From: an uncultured Alphaproteobacteria bacterium
GTDB taxonomy: Bacteria > Pseudomonadota > Alphaproteobacteria > UBA828
Direction: 5' to 3'
Assembly: GCA_913053235.1 (NCBI GenBank)
Contig: CAJXFT010000002.1
Span: 1 to 62,183 of the forward strand
DNA: 62,183 nucleotides
Part shown: positions 1 to 38,854 of the stretch, in pieces
How the letters are laid out: every line of letters starts with the position of its first letter
Position numbering within the stretch: position 1 is the first letter of the stretch
Notes under the pieces: generated by a model
Seen by the model: the letters and a program-made list of their open reading frames with translations, nothing else
What the model was told of the DNA's origin: nothing
Database searches by the model: none
Position numbers and translations under genes: made by a program

Positions 1-1
1 G

Positions 2-190
2 TATCTGCCGCCCTATTCGCCCGACTTCAACCCCATTGAGATGGCCTTCTCCAAGCTCAAGGCCGCCCTGCGAAAAGCCGCCCTGCGCACCAAAGACGAG
101 CTCTGGCAGATCATCGCCGAAGCCATCGACGACTTCACACCCACTCAATGTCAAAATTACTTCACCGCAGCAGGGTATGAACCGGATTAA
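2..190 (+). mobile_element. IS630-family DDE transposase, C-terminal fragment (gene runs off the left edge of the window)
   Basis: Frame 2 reads YLPPYSPDFNPIEMAFSKLKAALRKAALRTKDELWQIIAEAIDDFTPTQCQNYFTAAGYEPD*. The YSPDxNPIE block followed by a K/R-rich helix is the catalytic-Glu region at the C-terminus of IS630/Tc1-mariner transposases. TAA at 188-190. Confidence 0.75.
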
Positions 191-316
191 ATTGAATCTG
201 CTTTAGAAGCGGACATTTTCATTTGAGTTTGTTCGATATGAAGCCGTGCCCGCCACGCGCCAGCGAAAGGCGAATTCTTGCGGCGCGGCGTGACCGGCCT
301 CGGCGTGCGCTGTCGA

Positions 317-1051
317 TTATCCACGCACCTCGGGGCGCTTTGGAGAGCCGACAAATTCGCGGCGGCCGTGCGGTCGGTCGGCGCCGAAATGCTTGAAGGC
401 GATCTCACTGGATTCAGCTATGTGCGCCGCCATCAGCGTTTCGGCGCTGCCGCCGTCACCGGCCTCAATCGCTTTCAAAACCTCGCCATGCTGTCGCCAG
501 CCACGCTTCAACTGCGTGGCCGGGTATTTGTAGCGCGAGCGGTGTGTAATGGTCACCGCCAGAACCTGGCGCTCCACCGTCAACAGGAGCTGGCTGCCGG
601 CGGCGACGGCGACGGCCTCGTGGAAGGCGAGGTCGGCCTGAGCCTGATCCTGCGCGGTTCCGGTTTTACCCAGGCGCTGCTGTGCCGCCAGGGCGTCGGC
701 CACCCGGTCGATCTTGATCCGGTCGCCGTTCTCGGCCGCGAGGCGCGCCGAATGCGATTCCAGCAGCCGCCTGAGCGCGTAGATCTGTTTGATGTCGCTC
801 TGCGTGACACGGCTCACGCGGGCGCATTGGTTGGGGATAAGATCGACCAGCCCCTCGCCGCTCAAGGTGAAGAGCGCCTCGCGTATCGGCGTGCGGCTTA
901 CCCGCAGCTCCTCGGCCAGGCGGCGCTCGCGCAACTGCTGGCCGGGGCCGAGGATGCCGGCCAGGATCGCCTTGCGCAGGACATGGGCGATGCCCTCGCT
1001 GGTGCGCACGGCCATCGGGCCGCTAATCAGATCCGCCAACAGGCCGGGCAT
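317..1051 (-). CDS. GntR-family transcriptional regulator (FadR/FCD subfamily)
   Basis: 244-aa ORF. N-terminal GntR winged HTH (RRLAEELRVSRTPIREALFTLSGEGLV) and an all-helical FCD-like C-terminal domain. ATG 1051 is preceded by GGGAG and lies 7 nt after the stop of the HD-domain gene. Confidence 0.85.
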   Translation of the reverse strand: MPGLLADLISGPMAVRTSEGIAHVLRKAILAGILGPGQQLRERRLAEELRVSRTPIREALFTLSGEGLVDLIPNQCARVSRVTQSDIKQIYALRRLLESHSARLAAENGDRIKIDRVADALAAQQRLGKTGTAQDQAQADLAFHEAVAVAAGSQLLLTVERQVLAVTITHRSRYKYPATQLKRGWRQHGEVLKAIEAGDGGSAETLMAAHIAESSEIAFKHFGADRPHGRREFVGSPKRPEVRG

Positions 1052-1058
1052 TGAACGG

Positions 1059-1724
1059 TTACTCCCTGGCTAGGCCGAGCAACAGGCTTCGGCTGCTCGC
1101 GATCTCGCGCTGGCACTTCACATCGATGTCGGTGTCGTGCGCGGATTCGAGCGCTTGCAGGGCGCTCTCGAAAAGCGGAAGTGCGGCGGTCAGCGCCAGC
1201 GAGGGGCGGATGCGCTCGACGCTGTAATCGAGCTTCTCTCTCGCCTGTTCCACTGTGTAACGCCCGCTGCGCACCCACTCGACGGTGAGCCAATCCGAGG
1301 TTTCGAGGAAGGACAGGGAATCGGCCGCCTGCACGAAATCGGCCTCCCAGTTGCCGCCGATCTCATGCCTGAGGACGAGCCGGCGGACGCGCCGGATGTA
1401 ACCTTCATCCGGCGCCGGCGAGCGCTCGCACAACCATTTCTCGACGATGTCGGCGGAGCGGATCGAATGGGCGAAAAGGTAATCGGGGTCGTCAAAACCG
1501 TCGCTCGGCGTGCTCGTCGGGCCGCCGGGGAAATGCCGCTCGGCATCGTGCACCAGCGTCGCCAGCTTGACTTCGGCGGAGGCCTCCGGGCACAGCTTCA
1601 TCACCCACATCCGGGCGCATAGCAGATGTTCGAGCTGATAGAAGCCGTCCAGCCATTCGACGGCATCCGCCTCGATCGGCGAAAGGCCCGCATTGGCATA
1701 GCGCCCGGCGGCGGCGCTACCCAT
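1059..1724 (-). CDS. HD-superfamily metal-dependent phosphohydrolase-like protein (uncharacterised)
   Basis: ORF 1059-1763. The preferred start ATG at 1724 shares one base with the TGA of the upstream Mo subunit (TGATG on the minus strand). H..HD..H/D pattern (LEHLL, LVHDAERH, LRHEIGG). No closer family recognised. Confidence 0.55.
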   Translation of the reverse strand: MGSAAAGRYANAGLSPIEADAVEWLDGFYQLEHLLCARMWVMKLCPEASAEVKLATLVHDAERHFPGGPTSTPSDGFDDPDYLFAHSIRSADIVEKWLCERSPAPDEGYIRRVRRLVLRHEIGGNWEADFVQAADSLSFLETSDWLTVEWVRSGRYTVEQAREKLDYSVERIRPSLALTAALPLFESALQALESAHDTDIDVKCQREIASSRSLLLGLARE

Positions 1725-4087
1725 CACGGATTCGCCCCCTTGGCGTTCTTCAGAGCGCGCCACACGCTCTCCGGAGTCAATGGCAGTCGGGAGAGTTCGA
1801 CGCCGAACTCAGACAGCGCATCGCACAGCGCGTTGGCCAGCGCAGCCGCCGGCGGGATGGTGCCGACCTCGCCGACGCCGCGCTCGCCGAAACTGGTGAC
1901 CGGAGAGGGAATCTCGCTGTGCAGCAGTTCGATCGGCGGCACATCCGCCGCCGTCGGCATGAAATAGTCGAGCATGCTGCCGCTCACCAGCTGGCCGGTA
2001 TCGGGATCGTAGATCAGGTCCTCGGAGAGCGCCGCGCCCAGCCCCTGCACCAGGCCGCCCAGCACCTGACCCTCGACCAGTAGCGGGTTAACCGCGGTGC
2101 CGCAGTCATGCACCATCACCAAGCGATCGACGCTGAACTCGCCGCTCTCGGGATCGGCCGCAACCACCGCCGCCGCCGTGCCGAAGGAGAAAGCCGCTTC
2201 GTCGGGCGCGTAATGCGCGCTCGCTTCAAGGCCCGGCGTCTCTTCTGGCGGAATGCCCTGGCCGATGATGGCGCGGGTGAAGATATCGCTGAGCGCCAGG
2301 CTGCGCGAGTGGTCGTCGCGCAAGCGTACCACTTGGCCGCTCACCTCCAGCGCCTCGGGCGCCGTCTCAAGCACCCAGGCGGCGATGCGCAAGGCCTTGC
2401 CGCGCAGCTCATCGGCGGCTTCGCGGATCGCCCCGGCGGCGGCGATCAGGGTACGCGAGGCGAAGGCGCCGGTGTTGAGGGGCGACGAGGCGGTGTCGCC
2501 GGCATGGACGTGGATCGATTCGTAATCGACGGCCAAAATCTCGGCGCAGATCTGGGCAAAGGCGGTCTCGCTGCCCTGTCCGAAGGTCGAGACGCCGGTG
2601 TAGAGATCGATGTCACCGGAGCGGTTGGCGCGCAAAGTCACGCTCTCATGGGCGCCGAAAATCGAGCCCCGGTTGGCGAGGAAGCGGGCGCTGGCATAGC
2701 CGGTGCGCTCGACAAAAGAAGCAAAGCCGATCCCCTTCAGGCGGCCATCGCCGTCGGCCCGCCGGGGCGCGGCGCGGTGCGCGGCATAACCGACGGCTTC
2801 GCCGGCCATGCGCAGCGTCTTCACGTAATCGCCGCTGTCATAGACGGCGCCGCTCGGGGTTTTCCACGGCAGATCCTCCGGCCTGAGCATGTTGCGCTCG
2901 CGGAATTCGAGCGCATCGAGCCCAAGCCGGCGCGCCAGCCTGTCGATCAGGACCTCGCGGGCGAAATTGACCTCCGGCTGGCCGTAGCCCCGATAGGCGC
3001 CGATCGGCGTCTTGTTGGTCACGGCGACGCGCCGCTCGGCCACGGCGTCGGCCAGCTTATAGGGTCCGGTGAAGACGACGCTGGAGAGCTGCGCCGAGCC
3101 GAACGAGGAGTTCCAGGCGCCGAGGTCGGTGGTGTAGCGGTTGGTGATGGCGCTGATCTCGCCGTCGGTCCGGGCACCGATGGCAAAGTCGAACACCGCC
3201 TCGCGCGCATGTGTGCTGGCGCGGAAATATTCGAGGCGGTCCTCGATCCACTTGACCGGGCGGCCGAGCGCCATGGCGTGCAGGGCGGCGAGCAGGTCCT
3301 CCGGATAGATTCCCAGCTTCTGGCCGAACCCGCCGCCAACATCGGATGCGGCAACGCGGATGCAGCCCTCGTCGAGGCGTAGCGATTCGGCGAGCTGATG
3401 GCGCAACAGATGCGGCGTCTGGGTCGAGGCGTAAACCGAAAGCTGGCGCGCTCCGGGGCGCCAACGGGCGACGACGCCGCGCCCCTCCATCGCCATCGCA
3501 GTCACGCGGTTGATGCGGAAGCGTTCCCCGACGACTATGTCGGCCTCGGCCATGCGTTCCTCGGGCACGCCGGCGCGGTCCTCGTGACGTGCCAAGAGGT
3601 TGCTGTCCAGCACGCCGGGATGAAGAACCGGCGCATCTTCCGCCAGGGCTTGCAGCGTATCGGTGACATGGGGCAGCGGCTCATAATCGATGTCGATCAA
3701 TTCGAGCGCGTCCTCGGCGAGCGCGCGGCTGGTCGCCACCACGCTCACCACCGGCTGCCCCTCATGGATCGCGCGCTCCCCGGCCAACGCATAATAGGGC
3801 AGCTCCGGCGCGCCGGGCACCGGCCGCAAGACAGTCAGCGGCGCGCTCAGGGCGCGCACATCGGCGCCGGTCAGGATATGTTCGACGCCCGCCAGGGCGA
3901 GGGCAGGGGAGACGTCGAGCCCGCGAATTTCGGCATGCGGGAAGGGGCAGCGGCCGACCGCCATTTCGAGCTGATGCGCCGATTGCACATCGTCGGTGAA
4001 GCAGCCGTCACCGCGCAGCAGCCGGTCGTCCTCCTTGCGCGGCAGCGAGGCGCCGATAAGGCTGCGTTGCGCCGCCACCGCGCTCAT
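1724..4087 (-). CDS. Xanthine-oxidase/CoxL-family molybdopterin-binding large subunit (set 1)
   Basis: 787 aa. N-terminal SLPRKEDDRLLRG, loop GAYRGYGQPE, and C-terminal FGERGVGEVGTIPPAAALANA carrying the family catalytic Glu. Lacks the form-I CODH loop VAYRCSFR. ATGA overlap with the 2Fe-2S subunit at 4084-4087. Confidence 0.9.
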   Translation of the reverse strand: MSAVAAQRSLIGASLPRKEDDRLLRGDGCFTDDVQSAHQLEMAVGRCPFPHAEIRGLDVSPALALAGVEHILTGADVRALSAPLTVLRPVPGAPELPYYALAGERAIHEGQPVVSVVATSRALAEDALELIDIDYEPLPHVTDTLQALAEDAPVLHPGVLDSNLLARHEDRAGVPEERMAEADIVVGERFRINRVTAMAMEGRGVVARWRPGARQLSVYASTQTPHLLRHQLAESLRLDEGCIRVAASDVGGGFGQKLGIYPEDLLAALHAMALGRPVKWIEDRLEYFRASTHAREAVFDFAIGARTDGEISAITNRYTTDLGAWNSSFGSAQLSSVVFTGPYKLADAVAERRVAVTNKTPIGAYRGYGQPEVNFAREVLIDRLARRLGLDALEFRERNMLRPEDLPWKTPSGAVYDSGDYVKTLRMAGEAVGYAAHRAAPRRADGDGRLKGIGFASFVERTGYASARFLANRGSIFGAHESVTLRANRSGDIDLYTGVSTFGQGSETAFAQICAEILAVDYESIHVHAGDTASSPLNTGAFASRTLIAAAGAIREAADELRGKALRIAAWVLETAPEALEVSGQVVRLRDDHSRSLALSDIFTRAIIGQGIPPEETPGLEASAHYAPDEAAFSFGTAAAVVAADPESGEFSVDRLVMVHDCGTAVNPLLVEGQVLGGLVQGLGAALSEDLIYDPDTGQLVSGSMLDYFMPTAADVPPIELLHSEIPSPVTSFGERGVGEVGTIPPAAALANALCDALSEFGVELSRLPLTPESVWRALKNAKGANP

Positions 4088-4569
4088 CCGACGGCCTCGC
4101 CGTCGCCGAGATAATCCTCGACCGCCCGGACGATGCCGTCATAGCCGGTGCAACGGCAGAGAACGCCGCTCAGCTCGCCGCGGATTTCATCGCGCGAGAA
4201 TTTGCGCCCGCTGGATTTAAGGCCGGTCGCCAGCATCAGGAAGCCCGGCGTGCAGAAGCCGCATTGCAGCGCGTGGCGCTTCTTGAAGGCGGCTTGCAAA
4301 TCGCTCAGCCGATCGTCCTCGGCCAGGGATTCGACCGTTCTCACATCGGCGCCTTCCAACTGCATCGCCAGAAGCAGGCAGGATTTGACCGCCTCGCCGT
4401 CGAGCAGGATGGTGCACATGCCGCACACGCCCTGTTCGCAGCCGACATGGGTGCCGGTCAGCCCCAACCGGTGGCGCAGGAAATCGGCCGCATGCATGCG
4501 CGCCGGCGCCTCGGCCGACACCTCCCGCCCGTTTACGCGAAGGCTTATGCTGTGTTCGTTCGAACTCAT
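4084..4569 (-). CDS. (2Fe-2S)-binding small subunit, CoxS-like (set 1)
   Basis: 161 aa. Motifs GCEQGVCGMCTILLDG and QCGFCTPG...CRCTGY indicate two [2Fe-2S] sites typical of Mo-hydroxylase small subunits. Confidence 0.9.
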   Translation of the reverse strand: MSSNEHSISLRVNGREVSAEAPARMHAADFLRHRLGLTGTHVGCEQGVCGMCTILLDGEAVKSCLLLAMQLEGADVRTVESLAEDDRLSDLQAAFKKRHALQCGFCTPGFLMLATGLKSSGRKFSRDEIRGELSGVLCRCTGYDGIVRAVEDYLGDGEAVG

Positions 4570-4584: not shown

Positions 4585-5208
4585 CTACATCCGCAACAAA
4601 ATGATCAGGGCAAGGATGGCCGCGGCGGCGCCAAAAAACGCCGCCGCCTTGGCCCATGGGTCGCCTCGCGGCGGTGCTGGAACTTGGGCCGGCATGGCCG
4701 CGGGTTCTCGCTTGGCAGTGGCCGCTCTTTGGGTTTTTTGTTCGACCGGGGCCGTCGCCCCCGCGCCCGACAGCGCGCGCTGCAGATTGCTTGCGAATTC
4801 GGCGGTCACCTTTGCCGCCTGCTTGGTGATTATCGCGTTTCCGACCGTGCCGAGCACGCCGGCCAGCGCCGCCTCGCCTTCGACCACCACATCGGTCTCG
4901 TCGCCGACCGCCGTCAGGGTGACCGAGTTCTGCGTCCGGAAATGGCCGAGCGCGCCGCGTACCGCCTTGCCGGTCGAGGTGAATTCGATGCGCTCCTCAT
5001 GGACGCGCTCGGTGATGCGCACCTTGGCCTCGAAGGTGGCCGACATCGGCCCCAGCTTCTGGGTCGTGCGCACGGAAAGGCAATCATCCTCGAGCAGCTC
5101 GGCCTTCTCGACGCCGGGGATGCAATTCGCCACCTGCAGGGGTTGCTCGAAAAAGAGCCACACTTTGCCGATTTTCTCGGCGACGCGGAACTCCTGGCGG
5201 AATTTCAT
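4585..5208 (-). CDS. CoxG-like SRPBCC protein with a C-terminal hydrophobic tail anchor
   Basis: Start ATG 5208 (MKFRQEFRVAEKIGKVW...), 17 nt after the FAD-subunit stop. CoxG/SRPBCC-like core of about 150 aa, an Ala/Pro-rich linker, and a terminal helix AAAFFGAAAAILALIILLRM. The ORF-track extension to 5373 is rejected. Confidence 0.75.
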   Translation of the reverse strand: MKFRQEFRVAEKIGKVWLFFEQPLQVANCIPGVEKAELLEDDCLSVRTTQKLGPMSATFEAKVRITERVHEERIEFTSTGKAVRGALGHFRTQNSVTLTAVGDETDVVVEGEAALAGVLGTVGNAIITKQAAKVTAEFASNLQRALSGAGATAPVEQKTQRAATAKREPAAMPAQVPAPPRGDPWAKAAAFFGAAAAILALIILLRM

Positions 5209-5224: not shown

Positions 5225-6088
5225 TTAGCCTTGCGCCGAGAGGCGCAGGTCGCGCAACGCCTTGGCGATGTAGCGCGGCACGAGATGGGCGCGGTATTCC
5301 GCCGAGCCGCGAATATCGCTGGGCGGGTCGATGGCGCCGAGCGCGGCCTCGCCCGCCGCCGCGATATCGGCATCGCTCAGGCTGCTGCCTTCCAAGAGCG
5401 CCATGCTCGCCTCGGCCAGCACCGGCCTGTCATTGACCCCGCCCAGACCGATGCGAAGGCCGTGCCACCCACCGTCGGCGGAAAAATGCCCGGTGGCGGC
5501 CACCGAAAGCACGGCGAAATCATTATGCCGGCGGCACAGCTCGTGGAAGGCGAAATGCGGCGGATGCACCGCAAAGCGGATCTCGGTCAGCAGCTCGTCC
5601 GCCTCCAGCGCGGTCGCATAGGCGCCGTCGTAAAAATCCTCGATGGCGATCATGCGCGCGCCGGCCGGGCCGACGGCATTGATCTCGGCGCCGAGCACGA
5701 GACAGCCGAGCGGCATCTCGCTCGCCGGATCGCCCTGCACCAGGCTGCCGCCGATGGTCCCGCGCCTGCGTATTTGGTGATCGCCGATAAAGCGCACCAT
5801 GGTGGCGAGCAGCGGCAGCCTGGCGGCGATCAGCGGCGACGTCTCCAGGGTGGCGTGGCGGACCAGGGCGCCGAGATGCGTCTCCTCGCCTTGCGCCGTC
5901 ACTTCGGCGAGCTCCGAGAGCGCGTTGATATCGATCAGCGCCGCCGGGCGCCAGAGGCGCATGTTGAGCATCGGCATCAGGCTCTGCCCGCCGGCGAGCA
6001 GGCGCGCCTCGCCATCGTAATCCTCCATATAGCGCAGCGCTTCCGCCACCCCGGTCGCACGGTGATAGATGAAATCGGCGGCCTTCAC
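5225..6088 (-). CDS. FAD-binding medium subunit, CoxM-like (set 1)
   Basis: GTG 6088 overlaps the stop of the upstream gene (GTGA). VKAADFIYHRATGVAEAL...LLAGGQSLMPMLNMRL and IRRRGTIGGSL match the FAD_binding_5/CO_deh_flav_C pattern. Only two Cys residues, so no Fe-S insertion. Confidence 0.85.
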   Translation of the reverse strand: MKAADFIYHRATGVAEALRYMEDYDGEARLLAGGQSLMPMLNMRLWRPAALIDINALSELAEVTAQGEETHLGALVRHATLETSPLIAARLPLLATMVRFIGDHQIRRRGTIGGSLVQGDPASEMPLGCLVLGAEINAVGPAGARMIAIEDFYDGAYATALEADELLTEIRFAVHPPHFAFHELCRRHNDFAVLSVAATGHFSADGGWHGLRIGLGGVNDRPVLAEASMALLEGSSLSDADIAAAGEAALGAIDPPSDIRGSAEYRAHLVPRYIAKALRDLRLSAQG

Positions 6089-11365: not shown

Positions 11366-11371
11366 AATGAC

Positions 11372-15783: not shown

Positions 15784-15806
15784 CCAGAGCGCAAAGGATA
15801 GAGACA

Positions 15807-22841: not shown

Positions 22842-23497
<656 letters not shown>

Positions 23498-23501
23498 CAG
23501 T

Positions 23502-26279: not shown

Positions 26280-26283
26280 GGCG

Positions 26284-26766
26284 ATGGACAGTGTAAAAAT
26301 TGCGCTCACCGTGAACGGCCGGCGCCATGAACGCGAAGTCGAGCCGCGCCGGCTGCTGAGCGATTTTCTGCGCGAGGATCTTAGGCTCACCGGAACCCAT
26401 TTGGCATGCGAGCATGGTGTCTGCGGCTCCTGCACGATTCTCATGAACGGGCAAACCGCGCGCTCGTGCCTGACCTTCGCCGTCATGGCCGACGGCGCCG
26501 AGATCACCACCATCGAAGGGCTCGGCAGCGTCGAAAACATGCATCCGCTGCAAGCGGCATTCTGGGAAAAACACGGCCTGCAATGCGGCTTTTGCACACC
26601 CGGAATGTTGATGTCCGCGCTTGAGCTGTTGCGCGAAAATCCGGACGCCAGCAGCGAAGAAATACACCAGGCTCTGGCCGGCAATCTGTGCCGCTGCACC
26701 GGCTATCAAACCATCGTCGAGGCGGTCGAAGCGGCGGCCGAGACAATGCGGGGAGCAGAGCGATGA
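26284..26766 (+). CDS. (2Fe-2S)-binding small subunit, CoxS-like (set 4)
   Basis: ATG 26284 (MDSVKIALTVNGRRHE). ACEHGVCGSCTILMNG and QCGFCTPG...CRCTGY. Confidence 0.9.
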   Translation: MDSVKIALTVNGRRHEREVEPRRLLSDFLREDLRLTGTHLACEHGVCGSCTILMNGQTARSCLTFAVMADGAEITTIEGLGSVENMHPLQAAFWEKHGLQCGFCTPGMLMSALELLRENPDASSEEIHQALAGNLCRCTGYQTIVEAVEAAAETMRGAER

Positions 26767-30599: not shown

Positions 30600-30656
30600 G
30601 GGCCGACGAGACAGCGACTTAGATAAGATAATAAGACTGACGAGGGTATAAATTAG

Positions 30657-33301: not shown

Positions 33302-33395
33302 TGAAAAGATGATTTCGGTCATGATATAGTGCGACAGCGCGGACGTGACGCGCCGACGGGAGAGGACATCGCATACCAATTTGAGGGAGGCGGCT

Positions 33396-33821
33396 ATGAT
33401 ACCCAACATTCCCGAGAAAACCGGCATTCAAGAGAATCGCGGCCACACGCTAACCGACGACTTCATCACCCGAACCTACGTCCTGCCGCTGCTCACCGAT
33501 CCGGAATCCAAAGCCCGGCTCGTAGCGGAGCACAAGAACAATCCGATCGGCGTGCCGGGCAAGGCGGGAAAGGCGGCTGTCGGCCATAGCGAAGACCTGA
33601 TTCGGGTGATCGACAAGCTGCGGCGCCAGCCAATGCCCGGCAAATATGTGCGGGTGTGCGTAAATCCGCACGAGGGCTATTGCATCGGTATCGTATCGGG
33701 TGTGCGCGGCCAGCCGGTGGAAATACTGCGCGACGAGACCTATCCGAGCGAGGACGCGTGTGAACACGCAATTTTCGTGCGCCGGGTCGCCAATCTTTTG
33801 GCCGCCTACGGCTTCGACTAG
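33396..33821 (+). CDS. Small protein in the position and size of the N,N-dimethylformamidase small (alpha) subunit; paralog of 36324-36707
   Basis: ATG 33396 follows GAGGGAGG (MIPNIPEKTG...), 141 aa. Lies directly upstream of the DMFase-like large subunit. The C-terminal half (PGKYVRVCVNPHEGYCIGIV..PVEILRDETYPSEDACEHA) aligns with the downstream 127-aa protein. Confidence 0.5.
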   Translation: MIPNIPEKTGIQENRGHTLTDDFITRTYVLPLLTDPESKARLVAEHKNNPIGVPGKAGKAAVGHSEDLIRVIDKLRRQPMPGKYVRVCVNPHEGYCIGIVSGVRGQPVEILRDETYPSEDACEHAIFVRRVANLLAAYGFD

Positions 33822-33930
33822 GCGCCTTTGCCGCGGTCAAGCCGCGCCACGCCACTACGACTTATGAGACAAGCCAGTCGGCGCCGGGGGATGACCCGGT
33901 GCTGAACTGGAACATAAAGGGAGGTAAGTC

Positions 33931-36282
33931 ATGTTGCGGATTACTGGATACAGCGATCGCTATGCGTTATGCCCCGGCGAAGAGATCAGGTTCTACATCA
34001 ATTCCGAGCAGGGCGAGAGCTATCGCGCCGACATTGTTCGCATGATTCACGGAGACACCAATCCGGCCGGCCCGGGCTTCAAGGTGGAAGAACTCGACAC
34101 GCCGGTGAGCAAGGAATATGCCGGGCGCAATCAGATCATTCATGGCGGCTCCTACGCGGTGGTGCCACACCACCACCGGATGAACGTCGAGAGCTTCACC
34201 CTGCAGGCGTTTATTTTTCCAACCACGCCCGACAAGGGCGTCCAAGGCGTTTTGAGCAAATATGTCGGGACGGCGGGCTACGGCCTCTTTATCGACGAGA
34301 ACGCCAACCTGGCGTTGTGGATCGGCGACGGCAACGGCAAGGTCGAGAAGATCGCCAGCGGAAGCCCGCTGCTGCGCAAGGTGTGGTATCTCGCCGCCGC
34401 CTCCTACGATGCCGCGAGCGGCCAGGTGCGGCTCTATCAGGAGCCCGTCGTGACCTCGGCCAATGGCGGCCTGGGCATGGCGTTGCTGCACCCGGCCGAG
34501 GAGACCGCATCCGTTGTCGAGGGCCGCTCGGCCGTCGCACCAGGCGCCAACGATGCGCCCCTGGTAATGGCGGCGCGCACCGAGGTTGCAAAGTCCGGGC
34601 GCTCGATCTTCGGCGCCCACTTCAAAGAAGCGCGCAGCCCGATCGAGCTGCCCCAGCAGGCGGACGTCTACAACGGCAAGATCGATCGCCCGCGCCTCGC
34701 CGCCCGGGCGCTCGACAAGAGCGAGATCGACGCGCTGGCGCGCGGCTTCAAGACCTGCCCGGCGGCGCTCCGCCGGAGCGTTGTCGGGGCTTGGGACTTC
34801 CACGCCAACATCACCAACAACATCGCCTCGACGCAAATTATCGACGTCTCGCCGAGCGTGCTGCACGGCCACGTCGTCAATCTGCCGGCGCGCGGCATGA
34901 CCGGCTACAACTGGACCGGCGACGAGATCGTCTATCATCATGCGCCCGAGGAATATGGCGCCATCCATTTTCACGACGACGACATCGACGATGCGCGCTG
35001 GGAGGTGGATTTCAGCTTCACCGTGCCCAAGGGCACCAAGAGCGGCGCCTATGCGGCGCGGCTGCGCGTCGGCGGCGAGAGCTCGGCCGAGACGGAGGAT
35101 TTCATCACTTTCTTCGTGCGCCCGCCGCAGGGCACCGCGACCGCCAAGGTCGGCCTGATCATTCCGACCTCAAGCTATCTGGCCTATTCCAACGACAACC
35201 TGGCGACCAATTCCGTGGTCGCCGAGCTGCTCGCCGGCAAGGTGCCGATCATGCAGGCCTCCGATCTCTATCTCAACGAACACCGCGAATACGGCCTGTC
35301 GACCTATTCGCTGCATTCGGACGGCAGCGGGGTGTGCTATTCCTCACGTCTCAGGCCAATCCTCAACATGCGGCCCAAATATCGCCACTGGCTGTCGCCC
35401 TCGCTGTGGCAGCTCAACGGCGATCTGCATCTGACCGACTGGCTGGAGCAAAAGGGCATCGATTTTGACGTGCACACGGACGAGGAACTCGACCGCGAAG
35501 GGCTCGATCTGCTCAAGCGCTATCCCGTCGTGCTGACCGGCAGCCATCCGGAATATTCCTCGGAGAAGATGGTCGACGCCTACGAGGCCTATCAGCAGCA
35601 GGGCGGGCGCTGGCTCTATCTCGGCGCCGACGGCTTCTATTGGATCACCGAATACCATCCCGACAACAGCAACATCATCGAAGTGCGCAAGGGCGAGGCC
35701 GGGACGCGCGCCTGGACGGCGAATCCGGGCGAATACAACAACGCCTTCGACGGCAAGTATGGCGGCATGTGGCGCGCCCGCGGGCGTATTCCGAGCAAAG
35801 TGTGCGGCCTTACATTCACCGCCTACGGCTTCGACGTCTCGTCCTATTACCGGCGCGACACCGATAGTTTCCGCCCCGAATGCGAATGGATGTTCGAAGG
35901 TATCGGCGATGAAGAGATTATCGGCGATTTTGGCCTCGTCGGCGGCGGCGCCGCCGGGCTCGAGCTCGACCGCTACGATCTCGAATTCGGCACGCCGCAC
36001 AATGCCTATCTGCTGGCGCACTCCGAGGGCCACACCGATCTCATGCTGCAAGTCAACGAGGAGATTCATTTCAGCGTGCGCGGCTACTATGGCGGCGGCG
36101 ACGAGAACCCGATGATCCGGGCCGACATGATCTACTACAAGACGCCCAACGGCGGCGCGGTGTTCGCTCCCGGCTCGCTCGCCTGGTGCGGCAGCCTGTC
36201 GCACGACAATTACGACAACAATGTCTCGCGCCTCATGGAGAACGTCATCCGAGGCTTCCTGCGGGAGGGCCCGCTGCCATAG
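33931..36282 (+). CDS. N,N-dimethylformamidase large (beta) subunit-like amidohydrolase
   Basis: 783 aa. The blocks RITGYSDRYALCPGEEIRFYI, IVRMIHGDTNPAGPGFK, YGAIHFHDDDIDDARWEVDFSFTVPKG, FFVRPPQGTATAKVGLIIPTSSYLAYSN, YGLSTYSLHSDGSGVCYSSRLRPILNMRPKYRH, VVLTGSHPEYSS, GLVGGGAAGLELDRYDLEFGTP and SLSHDNYDNNVSRLMENV match my recollection of DmfA2-type proteins (about 760 aa). Contexts for the 2-Tyr-1-Glu iron site are present. Confidence 0.72.
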   Translation: MLRITGYSDRYALCPGEEIRFYINSEQGESYRADIVRMIHGDTNPAGPGFKVEELDTPVSKEYAGRNQIIHGGSYAVVPHHHRMNVESFTLQAFIFPTTPDKGVQGVLSKYVGTAGYGLFIDENANLALWIGDGNGKVEKIASGSPLLRKVWYLAAASYDAASGQVRLYQEPVVTSANGGLGMALLHPAEETASVVEGRSAVAPGANDAPLVMAARTEVAKSGRSIFGAHFKEARSPIELPQQADVYNGKIDRPRLAARALDKSEIDALARGFKTCPAALRRSVVGAWDFHANITNNIASTQIIDVSPSVLHGHVVNLPARGMTGYNWTGDEIVYHHAPEEYGAIHFHDDDIDDARWEVDFSFTVPKGTKSGAYAARLRVGGESSAETEDFITFFVRPPQGTATAKVGLIIPTSSYLAYSNDNLATNSVVAELLAGKVPIMQASDLYLNEHREYGLSTYSLHSDGSGVCYSSRLRPILNMRPKYRHWLSPSLWQLNGDLHLTDWLEQKGIDFDVHTDEELDREGLDLLKRYPVVLTGSHPEYSSEKMVDAYEAYQQQGGRWLYLGADGFYWITEYHPDNSNIIEVRKGEAGTRAWTANPGEYNNAFDGKYGGMWRARGRIPSKVCGLTFTAYGFDVSSYYRRDTDSFRPECEWMFEGIGDEEIIGDFGLVGGGAAGLELDRYDLEFGTPHNAYLLAHSEGHTDLMLQVNEEIHFSVRGYYGGGDENPMIRADMIYYKTPNGGAVFAPGSLAWCGSLSHDNYDNNVSRLMENVIRGFLREGPLP

Positions 36283-36323
36283 GAAAGGCGGCCAAGCGAA
36301 CGATAAGAGGCGAATGAGAGGAC

Positions 36324-36707
36324 ATGTCGGACAAAACGCGTAGCTCGCCGATGGCGCTTGCCAAGACGCCGCCCGGCAAGGCCATGATGCCGACCCGGGC
36401 GCAATCGGCGAGCGCGCTGGAGCAGGCGCTCTTGGGCGAACTCGACCGTGAAAAGCTCAGCGACCTCGCCAAGGTGCTGTTCACCTTGAACAATCGACGG
36501 CACGGCCCGATACCGGGCTTCTATGTCGTGGTGTGCACCAAGGCGGAGGAAGAGTGGTGCGTCGGCCAGCTCTGCGCCGACAGCGAAAAGCCGCTGATGT
36601 TGCTCGAGGACAGGCTCTACGATTCGCCTGAAGCCGCCCAAGCCGCCGCCGAACGCCTCAAGGCCGCGCATCCCGCTTCGGATCAGCCGGGCTATTCCAT
36701 ATTGTAG
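36324..36707 (+). CDS. Small protein, divergent paralog of the putative DMFase small subunit
   Basis: 127 aa. The segment LSDLAKVLFTLNNRRHGPIPGFYVVVCTKAEEEWCVGQLCADSEKPLMLLEDRLYDSPEAAQAAA aligns by eye with 33396-33821. Shared residues: RR, PG.YV.VC, C.G, P...L.D..Y.S..A. Confidence 0.5.
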   Translation: MSDKTRSSPMALAKTPPGKAMMPTRAQSASALEQALLGELDREKLSDLAKVLFTLNNRRHGPIPGFYVVVCTKAEEEWCVGQLCADSEKPLMLLEDRLYDSPEAAQAAAERLKAAHPASDQPGYSIL

Positions 36708-36721
36708 AAGGGAGACGTCAC

Positions 36722-37176: not shown

Positions 37177-38190
37177 TCAGACGTGCGGCGCCACCTGCTC
37201 CATAAGGATCCGCATCGACTTCCGCACCAGTTCGCTCGGCATTCCGACGAACTGGATGTGGGCGACGAAATGGGTAATGCCGATCTCCTTGTACTCCTTC
37301 AGGGCCTCGATGCAGTGCTCAGGCCCGCCGCACACGAAGCGGTCCCTGACGATGTCGTCGAGCAGGTCGGTGCGATCGGGCGGGATGATGTTGCCCTCGT
37401 CGTCGACCAGGTGGCTCCAGGAGAGGTACTTGGCGAACTCCTCGCGCATGCCCTTGCCGGCCTCCTCCCAGGCCTTCTCGTCCGTGTCCGAAACGTAGAA
37501 CTCGCGCCAGATTCCGATCTCGGCGCGCTCGGGATCGCGGCCGGCCGTGGCATATTCCTCGTGAAAGGCCTTGGCGTTGCGGCGAATGATGGCCAGCGTC
37601 TGCTTGGGGTCGGCGAACCATCCGTCTCCCACCCGGCCGGCGAGGCGGACCGCGGGCTCGTTCTCTCCGGAGATCCAGATCGGCGGGTTCGGCTTCTGCA
37701 GCGGCTTCGGCCGCAAGGTGACGTCGCTGAGCTGCCAGAAGCGCCCGTCATAGTTCACATGGTCCTCGGTCCACAGCTTGCGGATGATCTCGGCGCCCTC
37801 CCGGGTTCGCGGCCGGCGTTCCTTGCGCTCGATGCCGAAGCCGGCGAACTCCTCCGCCCGGAACCCTTGGCCCATCGCGAAGTTGAGGCGGCCATTCGAG
37901 AGGATGTCGAAAACGGCGCCGTCCTCGGCGACGTGGATGGGATTGTAGCCGAGCGGAAACAGCAGAATCCCGGGGCCGATCCGGATCTTCTTGGTGTGCG
38001 CGGCGAGGAAGGAGCAGGCGACGAAGGGAGACGGCAGGATGCCGTTCTCCTCGAAATGCTGCGACGACAGCTGCACGGTGGTCATGCCGAACTCCTCGGC
38101 GAACTGAATCTCTTCGAGAGCGGCCGCGAATCCGGCCTGGAAAGGCCGCCCAGGTTGGCTTCCGATCGTGTACGAGACTCCGAATTCCAT
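37177..38190 (-). CDS. LLM-class (luciferase-like) flavin-dependent oxidoreductase (paralog 2)
   Basis: ATG 38190 lies 8 nt after AAGGAG. The ORF-track GTG 38193 is an alternative start. Collinear similarity to 9412-10425, e.g. NPPIWISGENEPAVRLAGRVGDGWFADP versus HPPIWLASKAEGAVRQAARNSDAWFADP, and FYVSDTDEKAWEEA versus AYVADTDEQAWEEA. Confidence 0.85.
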   Translation of the reverse strand: MEFGVSYTIGSQPGRPFQAGFAAALEEIQFAEEFGMTTVQLSSQHFEENGILPSPFVACSFLAAHTKKIRIGPGILLFPLGYNPIHVAEDGAVFDILSNGRLNFAMGQGFRAEEFAGFGIERKERRPRTREGAEIIRKLWTEDHVNYDGRFWQLSDVTLRPKPLQKPNPPIWISGENEPAVRLAGRVGDGWFADPKQTLAIIRRNAKAFHEEYATAGRDPERAEIGIWREFYVSDTDEKAWEEAGKGMREEFAKYLSWSHLVDDEGNIIPPDRTDLLDDIVRDRFVCGGPEHCIEALKEYKEIGITHFVAHIQFVGMPSELVRKSMRILMEQVAPHV

Positions 38191-38219
38191 CACTTCGTCT
38201 CCTTGCCCCGCCCATTGAG

Positions 38220-38348
38220 TTACGATTGGCGAACACGCTCCGGCGTGAGCGGATAGCGGTCGACCTTGACCCCGCCGCAGGCATCCGAGACCGCGTTGGC
38301 GATTCAGGCGGGGGGGCGCGCGATCAAGCCGTCCTCGCCCGTGCCCTT
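38220..38348 (-). pseudogene. Remnant (C-terminal ~40 codons, frameshifted) of a fifth xanthine-oxidase-family Mo-binding large subunit
   Basis: The minus strand reads KGTGEDGLIARPPA (38348-38307), then a stop/frameshift at the G/C homopolymer run near 38303-38312, then IANAVSDACGGVKVDRYPLTPERVRQS* (38303-38220). Compare GVGEVGTIPPAAALANALCDAL...LPLTPESV in set 1. No upstream body of the gene is present. Confidence 0.65.
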
Positions 38349-38511
38349 GAACCTACCCCCCCGATGATCCCGGAACATGCGCCTGACGATAGCCGAAACG
38401 GCCCATTCGCGGAAGCGTGGCGAGAAATTGACGCCAATCCGCCACGCCGGCGGAGCGTTTGAGTTTGCAGTTTTTTCGCGGCTGTAAAGGTGACGTTGCT
38501 GATTGAAGTGA

Positions 38512-38760
38512 TCGTCGACCGAAGAGTGGATTGATGCGAACTTGCATCGCAACTTTCGGCTCCTGAAATACGCCATCGCCGAGTGGATCGGCTGCCACAA
38601 CGGTGAGCGGCCCCATTCCGCCCTGGCCGGTCAAACGCCGGCCGAGACCTATGGCGCCGGACAGTCCGTGGATATGATGGACAAGGCTATCGCCTTGCCC
38701 ACATCCCCACCGGCTCAACAACAGCAACAGGAATTGAAAAATAGGTTTTTGGCGGCATGA
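38512..38760 (+). mobile_element. DDE (rve integrase-core) transposase, C-terminal fragment only (IS3/IS481-like)
   Basis: Open frame SSTEEWIDANLHRNFRLLKYAIAEWIGCHNGERPHSALAGQTPAETYGAG... The W..YN..RPHSALgg.tP motif marks the end of rve-type transposases. No catalytic core lies upstream. Confidence 0.65.
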
Positions 38761-38820
38761 TCAACATTCGGAATACACCTTAGACAGGCCGCCAAGCTGT
38801 CCAACAAAGTGGGACCACCT

Positions 38821-38854
38821 CAGGTCCAAGGTTCGAGTCCTTGTGCGCCCACCA
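38821..38854 (+). other. tRNA 3' fragment (variable loop, T-arm, 3' acceptor strand, discriminator, CCA): possible att-site remnant
   Basis: caggtc CAAGG TTCGAGT CCTTG TGCGCCC A CCA: canonical 5-bp T-stem, GTTCGAGTC T-loop and a terminal CCA at 38852-38854. No complementary 5' acceptor strand (GGGCGCA) or D-arm was found in the preceding 80 nt, so it is not an intact tRNA gene. Confidence 0.6.

What the first reader, a model, noticed from the sequence alone, without database searches (positions are those of the whole stretch)
1..38854. ~38.8-kb molybdoenzyme-dense island bounded by IS remnants and a tRNA 3' fragment
Seen in sequence:
- An IS630 transposase tail sits at 2-190.
- A composite scar sits at 38220-38854.
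- Between them lie 36 genes, of which 16 encode subunits of five separate molybdenum enzymes. These are four xanthine-oxidase-family trimers and one DMSO-reductase-family trimer. A decayed piece of a sixth Mo enzyme is also present.
- Right of 38854 the content switches to housekeeping-type genes (hslO, argF, argD, AsmA, MscS).
- The four trimer sets have different gene orders (M-G-S-L, L-M-S, L-M-S, M-S-L) and clearly divergent sequences, so they are not recent tandem duplicates.

Inference:
- This is a horizontally assembled catabolic island.
- It may encode a cascade of water-dependent hydroxylations. N-heteroaromatic or N-methylated substrates are plausible given the DMFase-like and TorT-like genes.
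- Such a concentration of Mo hydroxylases in one locus is unusual.
Basis: partly seen in the sequence, partly recalled or inferred. Interest (0 to 1): 0.7.

Follow-up and report, generated by a model that had tools for sequence, protein, structure and literature searches.

The report
Mosaic molybdenum-hydroxylase gene cluster, marine MAG
An uncultured marine alphaproteobacterium carries a real but ordinary kind of feature: about 38 kb stitched together from several separately known catabolic gene modules (one matching the 3-hydroxypyridine dehydrogenase system), lying in a transposon-scarred variable region and not shown to be one imported island.

Summary
Window 317-38193 carries four divergent xanthine-oxidase-family trimers, one with a separate CoxG subunit, and one DMSO-reductase-family trimer, making 16 subunit genes. 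An IS630 end lies at 2-190. At 38221-38854 there is a scar: a fragment of a sixth Mo subunit, an IS3 tail and 33 nt of tRNA-Lys(CTT).

The island reading is only partly supported.
- The window starts 255 bp into a MAG contig that ends inside the IS630. The left "boundary" is therefore an assembly edge.
- GC3 and tetranucleotide usage do not differ from the flank.
- Conserved synteny with relatives at 77-79% nt identity starts at AsmA (about 40855), not at 38854.
- A sister lineage at about 89% nt identity has the same order over 249-19016, but with different IS elements at the junctions.

The region is modular.
- 317-9053 is colinear with, and 53-73% identical to, the hpdA-type 3-hydroxypyridine dehydrogenase module. 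It includes the PEP-utilizing and PPDK-like helper genes but lacks the ring-cleavage genes.
- The DMSO-reductase-type enzyme is cytoplasmic and PadBCD-like.
- 33345-36707 is a DMFase-like amidase set.

Each of these modules occurs on its own elsewhere, often next to IS elements. I rate it a new member of a known kind, of moderate interest.

The parts
2..190 (+). 3' end of an IS630-family transposase gene (cut by the window start and the contig end)
   Evidence: Pfam DDE_3 E 5e-9, profile positions 111-145 of 146. The six contigs shown out of the 17 that carry the identical GntR end within about 820 bp of it, and in five of the six the gene caller's last ORF is DDE_3.
317..1051 (-). GntR/FCD regulator (counterpart of orf7 of the 3hpd cluster)
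   Evidence: Pfam GntR and FCD. 74% identical to the GntR of L143.
1059..1724 (-). 221-aa conserved protein of unknown function (counterpart of orf8); contains an HDAERH motif
   Evidence: Only a sub-threshold DUF4202 match. 62-72% identical to the gene in the same position in L143 and L144. The AF2 model was unusable.
1724..4087 (-). L1, XO-family Mo subunit (HpdA1-like)
   Evidence: Pfam. Best solved structure is quinoline 2-oxidoreductase QorL, 485 bits. 73% identical to Hyphomicrobium sp. 99 and 76% to L143. Carries an AYRGYG motif.
4084..4569 (-). S1, 2x[2Fe-2S] subunit (HpdA2-like)
   Evidence: Pfam Fer2 and Fer2_2. 71% identical to L143 and L144.
4585..5208 (-). Separate SRPBCC/CoxG subunit with a C-terminal hydrophobic anchor (HpdA3-like)
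   Evidence: Pfam COXG. TM-like segment at residues 184-207. HpdA3 is described with the same features.
5225..6088 (-). M1, FAD subunit (HpdA4-like)
   Evidence: Pfam FAD_binding_5 and CO_deh_flav_C. Gene call in L001.
6085..7182 (-). PPDK_N / ATP-grasp protein (orf9-like; PpsB-like)
   Evidence: Pfam PPDK_N E 1.5e-92. 62-71% identical to L143 and L144.
7179..9053 (-). PEP-utilizing mobile-domain protein (orf10-like; PpsA-like) with an intact phospho-histidine motif
   Evidence: NCBIfam NF006153, 796 bits against a cut-off of 578. Motif GGMMAHTAIISRE. 72% identical to Hyphomicrobium sp. 99 and 70% to Halomonas sp. MES3-P3E.
9412..10425 (+). LLM1, luciferase-like flavin oxidoreductase; first gene of the long plus-strand gene string
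   Evidence: Pfam Bac_luciferase. TIGR03619, 179 bits against a cut-off of 167.
10436..12517 (+). MoxR/CoxD-like AAA+ ATPase (10436-11365) and CoxE-like VWA protein (11372-12517): maturation factors for CODH-type Mo enzymes
   Evidence: Pfam AAA_5 and VWA_CoxE.
12548..16286 (+). L2-M2-S2, XO-family trimer (AYRGYG type)
   Evidence: Pfam. Motif. Best plasmid homologs reach only 39% identity.
16315..20045 (+). L3-M3-S3, XO-family trimer; closest solved structure is 4-hydroxybenzoyl-CoA reductase alpha
   Evidence: Pfam. PDB 1rm6_A, 310 bits.
20091..24332 (+). PadBCD-like DMSO-reductase-family trimer: catalytic subunit 20091-22841, 4Fe-4S subunit 22838-23497, NrfD-like membrane subunit about 23502-24332. 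No Tat signal on any subunit.
   Evidence: Pfam. N-termini. Cluster members at 90% identity or more, and homologs at 57-64% identity, are named phenylacetyl-CoA:acceptor oxidoreductase by JGI. Only distant PDB hits: ArrA at 93 bits and PsrA at 90 bits.
24353..25285 (+). EamA-family transporter (start approximate)
   Evidence: Pfam EamA. 310-aa gene call in L140.
25423..29222 (+). M4-S4-L4, XO-family trimer (M4 about 25423-26279, S4 26284-26766, L4 26763-29222)
   Evidence: Pfam. ORFs. L4 is 63-64% identical to genes on plasmids of Cupriavidus sp. P-10, Cupriavidus basilensis and Ancylobacter polymorphus; the latter two records, whose annotation was read, are conjugative and carry an IS near the genes.
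29421..33301 (+). Sugar-type (CUT2-like) ABC transporter: binding protein, fused ATPase, permease
   Evidence: Pfam Peripla_BP_4, ABC_tran and BPD_transp_2. 37-42% identical to the transporter next to the PpsAB-like and XO genes in Thermomicrobium roseum.
33345..36707 (+). DMFase-like amidase set: small subunit-like ORF 33345-33821, large subunit 33931-36282, second small ORF 36324-36707
   Evidence: 6lvb_A at 629 bits full length, with the Tyr/Tyr/Glu positions conserved. The small ORF's only PDB hit is the DMFase small subunit, E 0.003. The trio is 44/58/35% identical to Aminobacter niigataensis DMFA1 plasmid p1.
36722..37126 (+). Lumazine_bd_2 small protein
   Evidence: Pfam E 1.6e-25.
37177..38193 (-). 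LLM2, paralog of LLM1 (44% aa identity), in inverted orientation
   Evidence: Pfam. BLASTP.
38221..38345 (-). Pseudogene fragment: C-terminal ~40 residues of an XO-family large subunit with an in-frame stop
   Evidence: Translation, compared with the L1-L4 C-termini.
38542..38760 (+). IS3-family transposase C-terminal remnant
   Evidence: Pfam rve_3 E 3e-5. blastn to IS3 copies in Roseomonas plasmids.
38822..38854 (+). 3' fragment of tRNA-Lys(CTT): T arm, acceptor 3' strand and CCA
   Evidence: The 28-mer is the 3' end of tRNA-Lys(CTT) genes in 7 of 10 metagenome loci tested. ARAGORN finds no tRNA in the window.
38946..40868 (+). TPR-GT41 glycosyltransferase. It still belongs to the variable part: present in the sister lineage, absent next to AsmA in relatives at 77-79% nt identity.
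   Evidence: Pfam. L016. L012-L014.
40858..44850 (-). AsmA-family protein: first gene of the conserved flank
   Evidence: Pfam. Synteny over 57281-40855 in L012-L014.

Best explanation
Region 1-40.8 kb is a mosaic catabolic supercluster. It sits in an IS-rich, variable stretch of the chromosome of an uncultured marine alphaproteobacterium. It was built from at least four separable modules, not imported recently as one unit.

Module 1 (317-9053, minus strand):
- It is an hpdA-type system. The PEP-utilizing protein plus the ATP-grasp (PPDK_N) protein activate a hydroxylated pyridine-type substrate. The inferred route is phosphorylation of its OH group through a phospho-histidine, as in phenylphosphate synthase.
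- A four-component xanthine-oxidase-family enzyme then hydroxylates the ring carbon next to N with oxygen from water. Its parts are a Mo subunit, a 2x[2Fe-2S] subunit, an FAD subunit and a membrane-tethered SRPBCC/CoxG subunit. Electrons go to the respiratory chain.
- A GntR regulator controls it from the divergent promoter region at 9054-9411.

Module 2 (9412-29222, 16 tightly spaced plus-strand genes):
- It adds a luciferase-like flavoenzyme and CoxD/CoxE maturation factors.
- It adds three more XO-family hydroxylases and an EamA transporter.
- It adds a cytoplasm-facing, membrane-anchored PadBCD-like molybdoenzyme. The named enzyme of that family hydroxylates an activated CH2 group with water.

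Module 3 (29421-37126) is an ABC importer plus a two-subunit DMFase-like iron amidase, which would release an amine and formate or another acid from an N-acyl or N-formyl intermediate.

The IS630 copy, the IS3 remnant, the Mo-subunit pseudogene and the tRNA-Lys fragment are scars of the rearrangements that brought the modules together.

Status of the claims:
- Shown: gene content, homologies, modularity and the comparisons with relatives.
- Inferred: the substrates, the phosphorylation step, and whether the modules act in one pathway.
For: Module 1:
- Its eight-gene order equals orf10-orf9-hpdA4-A3-A2-A1-orf8-orf7 of Ensifer adhaerens HP1. [quoted passage not shown]
- Its proteins are 53-73% identical to Hyphomicrobium sp. 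99, which that paper lists as a 3hpd carrier. The PEP-utilizing protein is also 70% identical to that of Halomonas sp. MES3-P3E and 68% to that of Pseudonocardia sp. MH-G8, two further carriers listed there.
- The His motif and the CoxG C-terminal anchor are present.
- L1 is closest to quinoline 2-oxidoreductase among solved structures.

Modularity:
- Module 1 occurs alone between housekeeping genes in L143. It sits next to IS1595 and hydantoinase genes in L146. It occurs with nicX, nicD and nicE in L144.
- The PadBCD-like set occurs alone in L019, and with two other XO trimers in L018.
- M4-S4-L4 homologs at 63% identity lie on conjugative plasmids next to IS elements.
- The DMFase-like trio lies on an Aminobacter plasmid.

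Variable region:
- Homology with L012-L014 stops at 40855.
- The sister lineage is collinear over 249-19016, 20004-26169 and 38957-47896, with IS21, an IS1595 tail and an IS6-like fragment (identified from its translation only) at the breaks.

Not recent:
- Composition is host-like.
- The best hit to the PadB-like protein outside the lineage is 65% identical.
Against: - No left flank is available, so a single large integrated element cannot be excluded.
- The tRNA-Lys fragment has the orientation expected for the distal att site of an element lying to its left.
- Operon structure is inferred only from gene spacing. The promoter and terminator scan gave nothing above chance.
- No substrate is known for L2, L3, L4 or the PadB-like enzyme.
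- Sequence identity to the characterised HP1 proteins could not be measured directly, because the HP1 plasmid was not found in PLSDB.
- The window lacks nicX, nicD, nicE and nicF. Its module 1 may therefore act on a different hydroxylated heterocycle.
Confidence: 0.6

Rival explanations
1. It is one tRNA-Lys-integrated genomic island. An integrative element of at least 38.8 kb inserted into the 3' end of tRNA-Lys(CTT). The fragment at 38822-38854 would be the distal att site. The intact tRNA and the integrase would lie to the left, beyond the IS630 and the contig end.
For: - The tRNA-Lys(CTT) 3' fragment lies on the strand expected if the element is to its left.
- IS and pseudogene debris lie beside it.
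- The region is absent next to AsmA in relatives at 77-79% nt identity.
Against: - The window has no integrase, no intact tRNA and no second copy of the att sequence.
- Composition cannot be told apart from the flank.
- GT41, to the right of the fragment, is also missing in the same relatives, so the fragment does not mark the edge of conserved synteny.
- The modules are found separately elsewhere.
- An attempt to show that such fragments flank integrase-bearing elements in two metagenome loci found no integrase.
Confidence: 0.2
2. It is an ancestral, vertically inherited catabolic region of this lineage. IS elements have merely peppered it, and more distant relatives have lost or moved it. 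No horizontal transfer is involved.
For: - Composition is host-like.
- The sister lineage has the same order.
- The PEP-utilizing protein shows a smooth identity gradient of 92, 82, 81 ... 72%.
Against: - Module 1 sits in at least three different genomic contexts in bacteria whose PEP-utilizing protein is 81% identical.
- PadB-like identity drops from 95% straight to 65%.
- 63%-identical M4-S4-L4 sets lie on conjugative plasmids of Beta- and Alphaproteobacteria.
- A tRNA fragment and a Mo-subunit pseudogene at the edge point to past insertions.
Confidence: 0.15
3. The XO-family trimers are aerobic CO dehydrogenases (the CoxD, CoxE and CoxG genes hint at this), and the DMSO-reductase-type enzyme is a respiratory reductase or the sulfite dehydrogenase SoeABC. 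The locus would then serve energy metabolism, not catabolism of organic substrates.
For: - CoxD-like, CoxE-like and CoxG genes are present.
- The top NCBIfam hits include CODH models.
- The A-B-C trimer lacks Tat signals, as I recall for SoeABC (own knowledge).
Against: - All CODH NCBIfam scores are about half the cut-offs, for example 557 against 950.
- L1, L2 and L4 carry AYRG[YF]G, not the form I signature VAYRCSFR (the signature is from my own knowledge).
- JGI names members of the same 90%-identity cluster, and homologs at 57-64% identity, of the A subunit phenylacetyl-CoA:acceptor oxidoreductase, not sulfite dehydrogenase.
- Respiratory reductase models score 35-182 bits against cut-offs of 694-1750.
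Confidence: 0.05

Closest known systems
3hpd cluster of Ensifer adhaerens HP1: four-component 3-hydroxypyridine dehydrogenase HpdA1-A4 with orf9 (pyruvate-phosphate dikinase-like) and orf10 (PEP-utilizing protein) (Wang et al., bioRxiv 10.1101/2020.01.08.898148)
   Same: - The eight-gene order is identical: PEP-utilizing, PPDK-like, FAD, separate SRPBCC with a C-terminal anchor, 2Fe-2S, Mo subunit, orf8, GntR.
- The proteins are 53-73% identical to Hyphomicrobium sp. 99, and the PEP-utilizing protein is 68-70% identical to two further strains the paper lists as carriers.
- There are IS elements beside the cluster, and an ABC transporter within the region (about 20 kb from module 1), as the paper describes for HP1.
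   Different: - No 2,5-dihydroxypyridine dioxygenase, deformylase, amidase or isomerase (hpdBCDE; nicX, D, F, E) anywhere in the 62 kb window.
- Chromosomal in a marine MAG, not on a soil-isolate plasmid.
- Joined head to head with a 20-kb string of further Mo enzymes.
- The substrate is untested.
Phenylacetyl-CoA:acceptor oxidoreductase PadBCD of Thauera and Aromatoleum (EC 1.17.5.1)
   Same: - Three subunits: a Mo-bisPGD protein, a 4Fe-4S protein and a membrane protein.
- Members of the same 90%-identity cluster, and homologs at 57-64% identity, carry this name in JGI annotation.
- Water-dependent hydroxylation would fit the theme of the locus.
   Different: - Orthology to the biochemically characterised enzyme was not tested.
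- No padEFGHI or padJ genes nearby.
- Here, and in L018, it is linked to xanthine-oxidase-family trimers.
- The N-terminal Cys motif has only three Cys (C-x2-C ... C).
N,N-dimethylformamidase DmfA1A2 (PDB 6LVB; Paracoccus and Methylobacterium)
   Same: - Full-length match of the large subunit (629 bits), with the Tyr, Tyr and Glu metal ligand positions conserved.
- A small ORF immediately upstream weakly matches the small subunit.
   Different: - About 42-44% identical to the Paracoccus aminophilus genes, and closer (58%) to an uncharacterised Aminobacter plasmid gene.
- A second small ORF follows it.
- N-acetyl-beta-phenylalanine acylase is also a family member, so the substrate is open.
Catabolic plasmids and islands for N-heterocycles with several Mo hydroxylases (for example nicotine plasmid pAO1 with ndhLSM and kdhLMS; quinoline qor genes)
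   Same: - Several divergent XO-family trimers are clustered with transporters, regulators and IS elements.
- L1 is closest to QorL and KdhL among solved structures.
   Different: - Four trimers plus a DMSO-reductase-type enzyme lie within 27.5 kb.
- No ring-cleavage oxygenase was recognised.
- The host is a pelagic marine MAG.
- The comparison with pAO1 rests on my own knowledge and was not tested here.

Membership tests
tRNA-integrated genomic island / integrative element | Integrase gene at one end, next to the target tRNA | tested here: not met
   No integrase domain in any major ORF of 1-40868. The left end lies off the contig, so this holds for the window only.
tRNA-integrated genomic island / integrative element | Intact tRNA at one end and a direct repeat of its 3' part at the other | tested here: inconclusive
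   Only the 33-nt tRNA-Lys(CTT) fragment is present. ARAGORN finds no tRNA and there is no second copy. The contig ends 255 bp left of the window.
tRNA-integrated genomic island / integrative element | Base composition or oligonucleotide usage differs from the flanking core | tested here: not met
   GC3 is 0.73-0.88 in the region and 0.68-0.84 in the flank. The tetranucleotide z-score correlation is 0.91 between the two parts and 0.85 and 0.75 within them.
tRNA-integrated genomic island / integrative element | Absent from the same site in related genomes | tested here: met
   L012-L014 (77-79% nt identity) lose homology at 40855. Different genes follow AsmA in L012 and L013; L014 ends inside AsmA. 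The sister lineage at 89-94% nt identity does carry the region.
hpdA-type 3-hydroxypyridine dehydrogenase module (3hpd) | Four-component XO-family enzyme with the SRPBCC domain as a separate, membrane-anchored subunit | tested here: met
   L1, S1, CoxG (207 aa, TM-like segment at 184-207) and M1. Described for HpdA3.
hpdA-type 3-hydroxypyridine dehydrogenase module (3hpd) | Adjacent PEP-utilizing and PPDK-like genes | tested here: met
   7179-9053 and 6085-7182. Their essential role in HP1 is reported.
hpdA-type 3-hydroxypyridine dehydrogenase module (3hpd) | Orthology to clusters listed as 3hpd by the authors | tested here: met
   Against Hyphomicrobium sp. 99: L 73%, S 71%, M 63%, CoxG 53%, PpsA-like 72%, PpsB-like 62%, orf8 62%. 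The Halomonas sp. MES3-P3E protein is 70% identical. Identity to HP1 itself was not measurable.
hpdA-type 3-hydroxypyridine dehydrogenase module (3hpd) | Linked maleamate-pathway genes (2,5-DHP dioxygenase NicX and others) | tested here: not met
   tblastn with NicX, NicD, NicE and NicF from L143 and L144 finds nothing in the window.
hpdA-type 3-hydroxypyridine dehydrogenase module (3hpd) | Converts 3-hydroxypyridine to 2,5-dihydroxypyridine | not testable with these tools
   Needs expression and HPLC.
PadBCD phenylacetyl-CoA:acceptor oxidoreductase | Mo-bisPGD, 4Fe-4S and membrane subunits encoded together | tested here: met
   Pfam Molybdopterin and Molydop_binding; Fer4_11; NrfD_2 with at least 6 TM-like segments.
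PadBCD phenylacetyl-CoA:acceptor oxidoreductase | Orthology to the characterised Thauera or Aromatoleum PadB | not tested
   No reference sequence was at hand. The only evidence is JGI names on members of its 90%-identity cluster and on homologs at 57-64% identity. There is no NCBIfam model and no plasmid homolog.
PadBCD phenylacetyl-CoA:acceptor oxidoreductase | Context of phenylacetate-CoA ligase and phenylglyoxylate oxidoreductase genes | tested here: not met
   No such genes among the window's ORFs.
N,N-dimethylformamidase (DmfA1A2) | Large subunit with the DMFA2_C domain and the Tyr/Tyr/Glu iron site, plus a small subunit | tested here: met
   6lvb_A at 629 bits; Y399, Y440 and E521 align to Y, Y and E (the residue numbers are from memory). 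The small ORF's only PDB hit is 6lvb_B at E 0.003.
Form I Mo-Cu CO dehydrogenase | Active-site loop VAYRCSFR and a score above the equivalog cut-off | tested here: not met
   AYRGYG or AYRGFG in L1, L2 and L4, and none in L3. The best CODH model scores are 480-572 bits for L1, L2 and L4 and 253-307 bits for L3, against cut-offs of 950-991.

The most novel reading that the evidence does not exclude
The head-to-head pair of operons at 317-29222 could encode a so-far undescribed route for breaking down hydroxypyridine-type N-heterocycles in the open ocean, one that needs no oxygenase. In it, ATP-driven phosphorylation would be followed by a series of water-dependent hydroxylations carried out by four xanthine-oxidase-type enzymes and a cytoplasmic PadBCD-like enzyme. 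These steps would replace the NicX dioxygenase and maleamate pathway used by relatives. The DMFase-like amidase would release the nitrogen.
Probability: 0.1. Interest if true: 0.7.

Novelty: new member of a known kind. Interest (0 to 1): 0.35.

Why it matters
The region gives a marine, uncultured example of the hpdA-type hydroxylase whose two PEP-synthase-like helper proteins are essential, although their role is still unexplained. It also shows that this module travels as a cassette, with or without ring-cleavage genes.

The locus hints that pelagic Alphaproteobacteria use water-dependent Mo hydroxylases on dissolved N-heterocycles. The recurring link between PadBCD-like enzymes and xanthine-oxidase-type trimers, seen here, in the sister-lineage contig L140 (which ends inside the M4 gene, so only the start of one trimer is visible) and in an unrelated 4.7-Mb genome, is a testable lead.

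As a genomic island claim it is a caution. A contig end inside a multi-copy IS and a 33-nt tRNA fragment do not define an island.

Tried and rejected
- Plasmid origin: megablast of 50 kb against PLSDB found no near match.
- Left flank: all shown contigs carrying the identical or the sister GntR end within 406-817 bp of it. The flank could not be recovered.
- Genome-collection scan with AsmA: it gave three informative relatives, but two of those contigs end just after AsmA and the third ends inside it.
- GT41 as an anchor: the 66%-identical homolog lies in an unrelated context.
- SoeABC or a respiratory reductase for the DMSO-reductase-type enzyme: rejected on NCBIfam scores and JGI naming.
- Homarine catabolism: the hom operon is flavin-based and unrelated.
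- CO dehydrogenase: rejected on the motif and the cut-offs.
- tRNA-Lys fragments as att sites of small elements in metagenome loci L035 and L097: no integrase was found, so this gave no support.
- Fold of orf8: the single-sequence AlphaFold model had pLDDT 46 and was not searched further. PDB and Pfam gave nothing significant.
- Rfam: no riboswitch or other RNA family.
- Promoter and terminator scan: not above chance. One call failed on the length limit.
- Literature on strain DMFA1: nothing found.

Full report
**Source and limits.** The window matches contig JASLMO010000003.1 of MAG GCA_030746645.1 (window position = record position minus 255). NCBI labels proteins of this cluster 'Alphaproteobacteria bacterium'. 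Identical genes occur in Tara Oceans and JGI marine metagenomes. The contig starts only 255 bp left of the window. The six contigs shown, out of 17 that carry the identical GntR, stop within 623-817 bp beyond it, and in five of them the last called ORF there is DDE_3. The left flank is therefore unavailable. The IS630 'tail' at 2-190 (DDE_3, E 5e-9) is the visible end of a multi-copy element that breaks assemblies. It is not shown to be a remnant or a boundary.

**Observation.** Pfam and NCBIfam scans and ORF inspection confirm the gene content:
- four xanthine-oxidase-family enzymes, in the transcription orders M-G-S-L, L-M-S, L-M-S and M-S-L;
- one DMSO-reductase-family A-B-C set;
- together, 16 subunit genes.

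The large subunits are 28-34% identical to each other. No NCBIfam equivalog cut-off is reached by any of them. L1, L2 and L4 carry AYRG[YF]G, and L3 is closest to 4-hydroxybenzoyl-CoA reductase.

The scar holds three items:
- the last ~40 codons of a sixth large subunit, with an in-frame stop (38221-38345, minus strand);
- an IS3-family tail (38542-38760);
- 33 nt identical to the 3' end of tRNA-Lys(CTT) (38822-38854).

I count 32 intact genes plus four fragments. In PLSDB, L1 homologs give 411 places in 351 records, at most four per record. The local density is therefore uncommon.

**Is it an island?**
- Composition says no. GC3 per gene is 0.73-0.88 left of 38854 and 0.68-0.84 to the right. 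The tetranucleotide z-score profiles of the two parts correlate at 0.91, more than the halves of either part do with each other (0.85 and 0.75).
- Comparison with relatives says the region is variable, but with different edges.
  - Three MAGs at 77-79% nt identity are syntenic from 57281 to 40855, the AsmA stop codon. Homology is then lost. In the two contigs that continue past AsmA (L012, L013), different genes follow. GT41 is absent.
  - A sister lineage at 88-94% nt identity is collinear with the window over 249-19016, 20004-26169 and 38957-47896.
  - At the breaks, that lineage has an IS21 upstream of the PadB-like gene, an IS1595 tail upstream of GT41 and an IS6-like fragment left of GntR.
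  - The assembly of modules therefore predates the split of the two lineages, and IS turnover continues.
- The window has no integrase, no intact tRNA and no repeat of the tRNA fragment.
- The orientation of the fragment fits an element lying to its left. A large island that reaches beyond the contig cannot be excluded, but nothing else supports it.

**Module 1 (317-9053, minus strand).**
- The transcription order is PEP-utilizing protein, PPDK_N protein, FAD subunit, separate SRPBCC/CoxG subunit, 2Fe-2S subunit, Mo subunit, a 221-aa protein, GntR.
- This is exactly the order orf10-orf9-hpdA4-A3-A2-A1-orf8-orf7 of the 3hpd cluster of Ensifer adhaerens HP1. [quoted passage not shown]
- The PEP-utilizing protein has homologs at 72% identity in Hyphomicrobium sp. 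99, 70% in Halomonas sp. MES3-P3E and 68% in Pseudonocardia sp. MH-G8. The paper lists these strains as 3hpd carriers.
- Against the Hyphomicrobium locus the other proteins are 53-73% identical.
- The phospho-histidine motif GGMMAHTAIISRE and a C-terminal membrane anchor on CoxG are present.
- L1 is closest to quinoline 2-oxidoreductase among solved structures.
- The Hyphomicrobium operon holds nicE, nicD and nicX, and L143, whose PEP-utilizing protein is 81% identical to the window's, holds nicX. The window has none of these anywhere.
- The same module lies between hem, tsaD and gpsA genes in L143. It lies next to IS1595 and hydantoinase genes in L146. It behaves as a cassette.

**Module 2 (9412-29222).**
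- Sixteen plus-strand genes are separated by at most about 140 bp: LLM1, a MoxR/CoxD-like ATPase, CoxE, L2-M2-S2, L3-M3-S3, the A-B-C trimer, EamA and M4-S4-L4.
- The A subunit (916 aa) has no twin-arginine signal and no room for one upstream. The B and C subunits have no signal either. The complex should therefore face the cytoplasm on a multi-helix NrfD-like anchor with at least six TM-like segments.
- Respiratory reductase models score far below their cut-offs. PDB hits are distant.
- JGI names members of the same 90%-identity cluster, and homologs at 57-64% identity, phenylacetyl-CoA:acceptor oxidoreductase.
- In a 4.68-Mb genome the 63%-identical trimer is followed by CoxG and two XO-family trimers. 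Those large subunits are 34-36% identical to L3 and L4. In another genome the trimer stands alone.
- M4-S4-L4 has 63-64% identical counterparts, each followed by a CoxG gene, on conjugative plasmids of Cupriavidus basilensis DSM 11853 and Ancylobacter polymorphus ZM13. Each set lies near an IS and near CoA-ligase or CoA-transferase genes.

**Module 3 (29421-37126) and LLM2.**
- A Peripla_BP_4 ABC importer is followed by a small-large-small gene trio.
- The large protein matches DMFase over its full length (6lvb_A, 629 bits), with the Tyr, Tyr and Glu ligand positions conserved.
- The upstream small ORF's only PDB hit is the DMFase small subunit (E 0.003).
- The trio is 44/58/35% identical to one on plasmid p1 of Aminobacter niigataensis DMFA1.
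- A 37-42% identical transporter sits next to PpsAB-like and XO-family genes in Thermomicrobium roseum.
- LLM2 is a 44% paralog of LLM1 in inverted orientation.

**Mechanism.**
- Shown: the homologies, cofactor-binding domains, motifs and contexts described above.
- Inferred for module 1: it phosphorylates a ring hydroxyl through its phospho-histidine protein, by analogy with phenylphosphate synthase and CreHI as the 3HP paper discusses. It then hydroxylates the carbon next to N with water-derived oxygen. Electrons pass Mo, 2x[2Fe-2S] and FAD to the membrane.
- The remaining Mo enzymes would add further water-derived hydroxyl groups. The DMFase-like amidase would split an N-acyl or N-formyl product. 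Whether the modules form one pathway is open.

**Comparison and verdict.**
- The locus is a new member of known kinds: a catabolic gene cluster in an IS-rich variable region, with an hpdA-type module, a PadBCD-like enzyme and a DMFase-like amidase.
- The 'horizontally assembled' part is supported in the sense of modular, IS-mediated assembly.
- The single 38.8-kb island with those bounds is not supported.
- The N-heteroaromatic guess is supported for module 1 only.
- Interest is moderate, because of the unexplained helper kinase, the missing ring-cleavage genes and the recurring link between PadBCD-like and XO-family genes.

Noticed in passing
window 1059-1724 (-): The orf8-like protein, which is present in all hpdA-type operons I looked at (62-72% identical in the two compared), contains an HD-like motif (VHDAERH). 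It could be a phosphohydrolase that undoes the phosphorylation made by the PEP-synthase-like pair. Pfam gives only a sub-threshold DUF4202 match, PDB gives nothing, and the AF2 single-sequence model failed (pLDDT 46).
   Followed up: partly
window 20091-20300 (+): The PadB-like catalytic subunit has no Tat signal. Its N-terminal cluster motif has only three Cys (C-N-Q-C-G-N-G-P-D ... K-V-C-V-K), with the usual third Cys missing. Pfam finds no Molybdop_Fe4S4 domain.
   Followed up: partly
L154 1549-3913: In one sister-lineage population the L2 gene is split into two ORFs of 503 and 289 aa, which suggests a frameshift or decay of that enzyme.
   Followed up: no
L143 14461-15489; L144 14598-17246: In relatives the ring-cleavage genes (nicX alone, or nicE-nicD-nicX) are inserted inside the hydroxylase operon, between the CoxG and 2Fe-2S genes. 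The window, the sister lineage and L146 lack this insert.
   Followed up: partly
L018 14225-22742: In an unrelated 4.68-Mb genome the PadBCD-like genes are followed by CoxG, M-S-L and M-S-(CoxG fused to L). They are preceded by DUF1302, DUF1329, MMPL and BNR genes and by xdhC. The locus is cut at its right end.
   Followed up: partly
window 9412-10425 and 37177-38193: Two luciferase-like paralogs (44% aa identity, 70-79% nt identity over short stretches) lie in inverted orientation and bracket modules 2 and 3.
   Followed up: partly
window 38350-38540 (-): Between the Mo-subunit fragment and the IS3 tail, the minus strand reads ...FNQQRHLYSRE.... This looks like the C-terminal end of another transposase (possibly IS6-like). 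It was not verified.
   Followed up: no
L023, L072, L097 (metagenome loci): The same 28-nt tRNA-Lys(CTT) 3' end occurs without a detectable tRNA gene, twice in L097 about 2.9 kb apart. The ORFs between the copies gave no Pfam hit.
   Followed up: partly
window 52526-56142 (-): The hybrid sensor kinase and response regulator have the lowest GC (0.54-0.57) and GC3 (0.70-0.72) among the larger genes tabulated (only the 69-codon DUF4169 ORF has lower values), yet they lie in the conserved flank.
   Followed up: no
window 39195-39585 (+): There are four 102-nt tandem units (60-80% identity) inside the GT41 gene. They correspond to its TPR repeats and are ordinary.
   Followed up: yes
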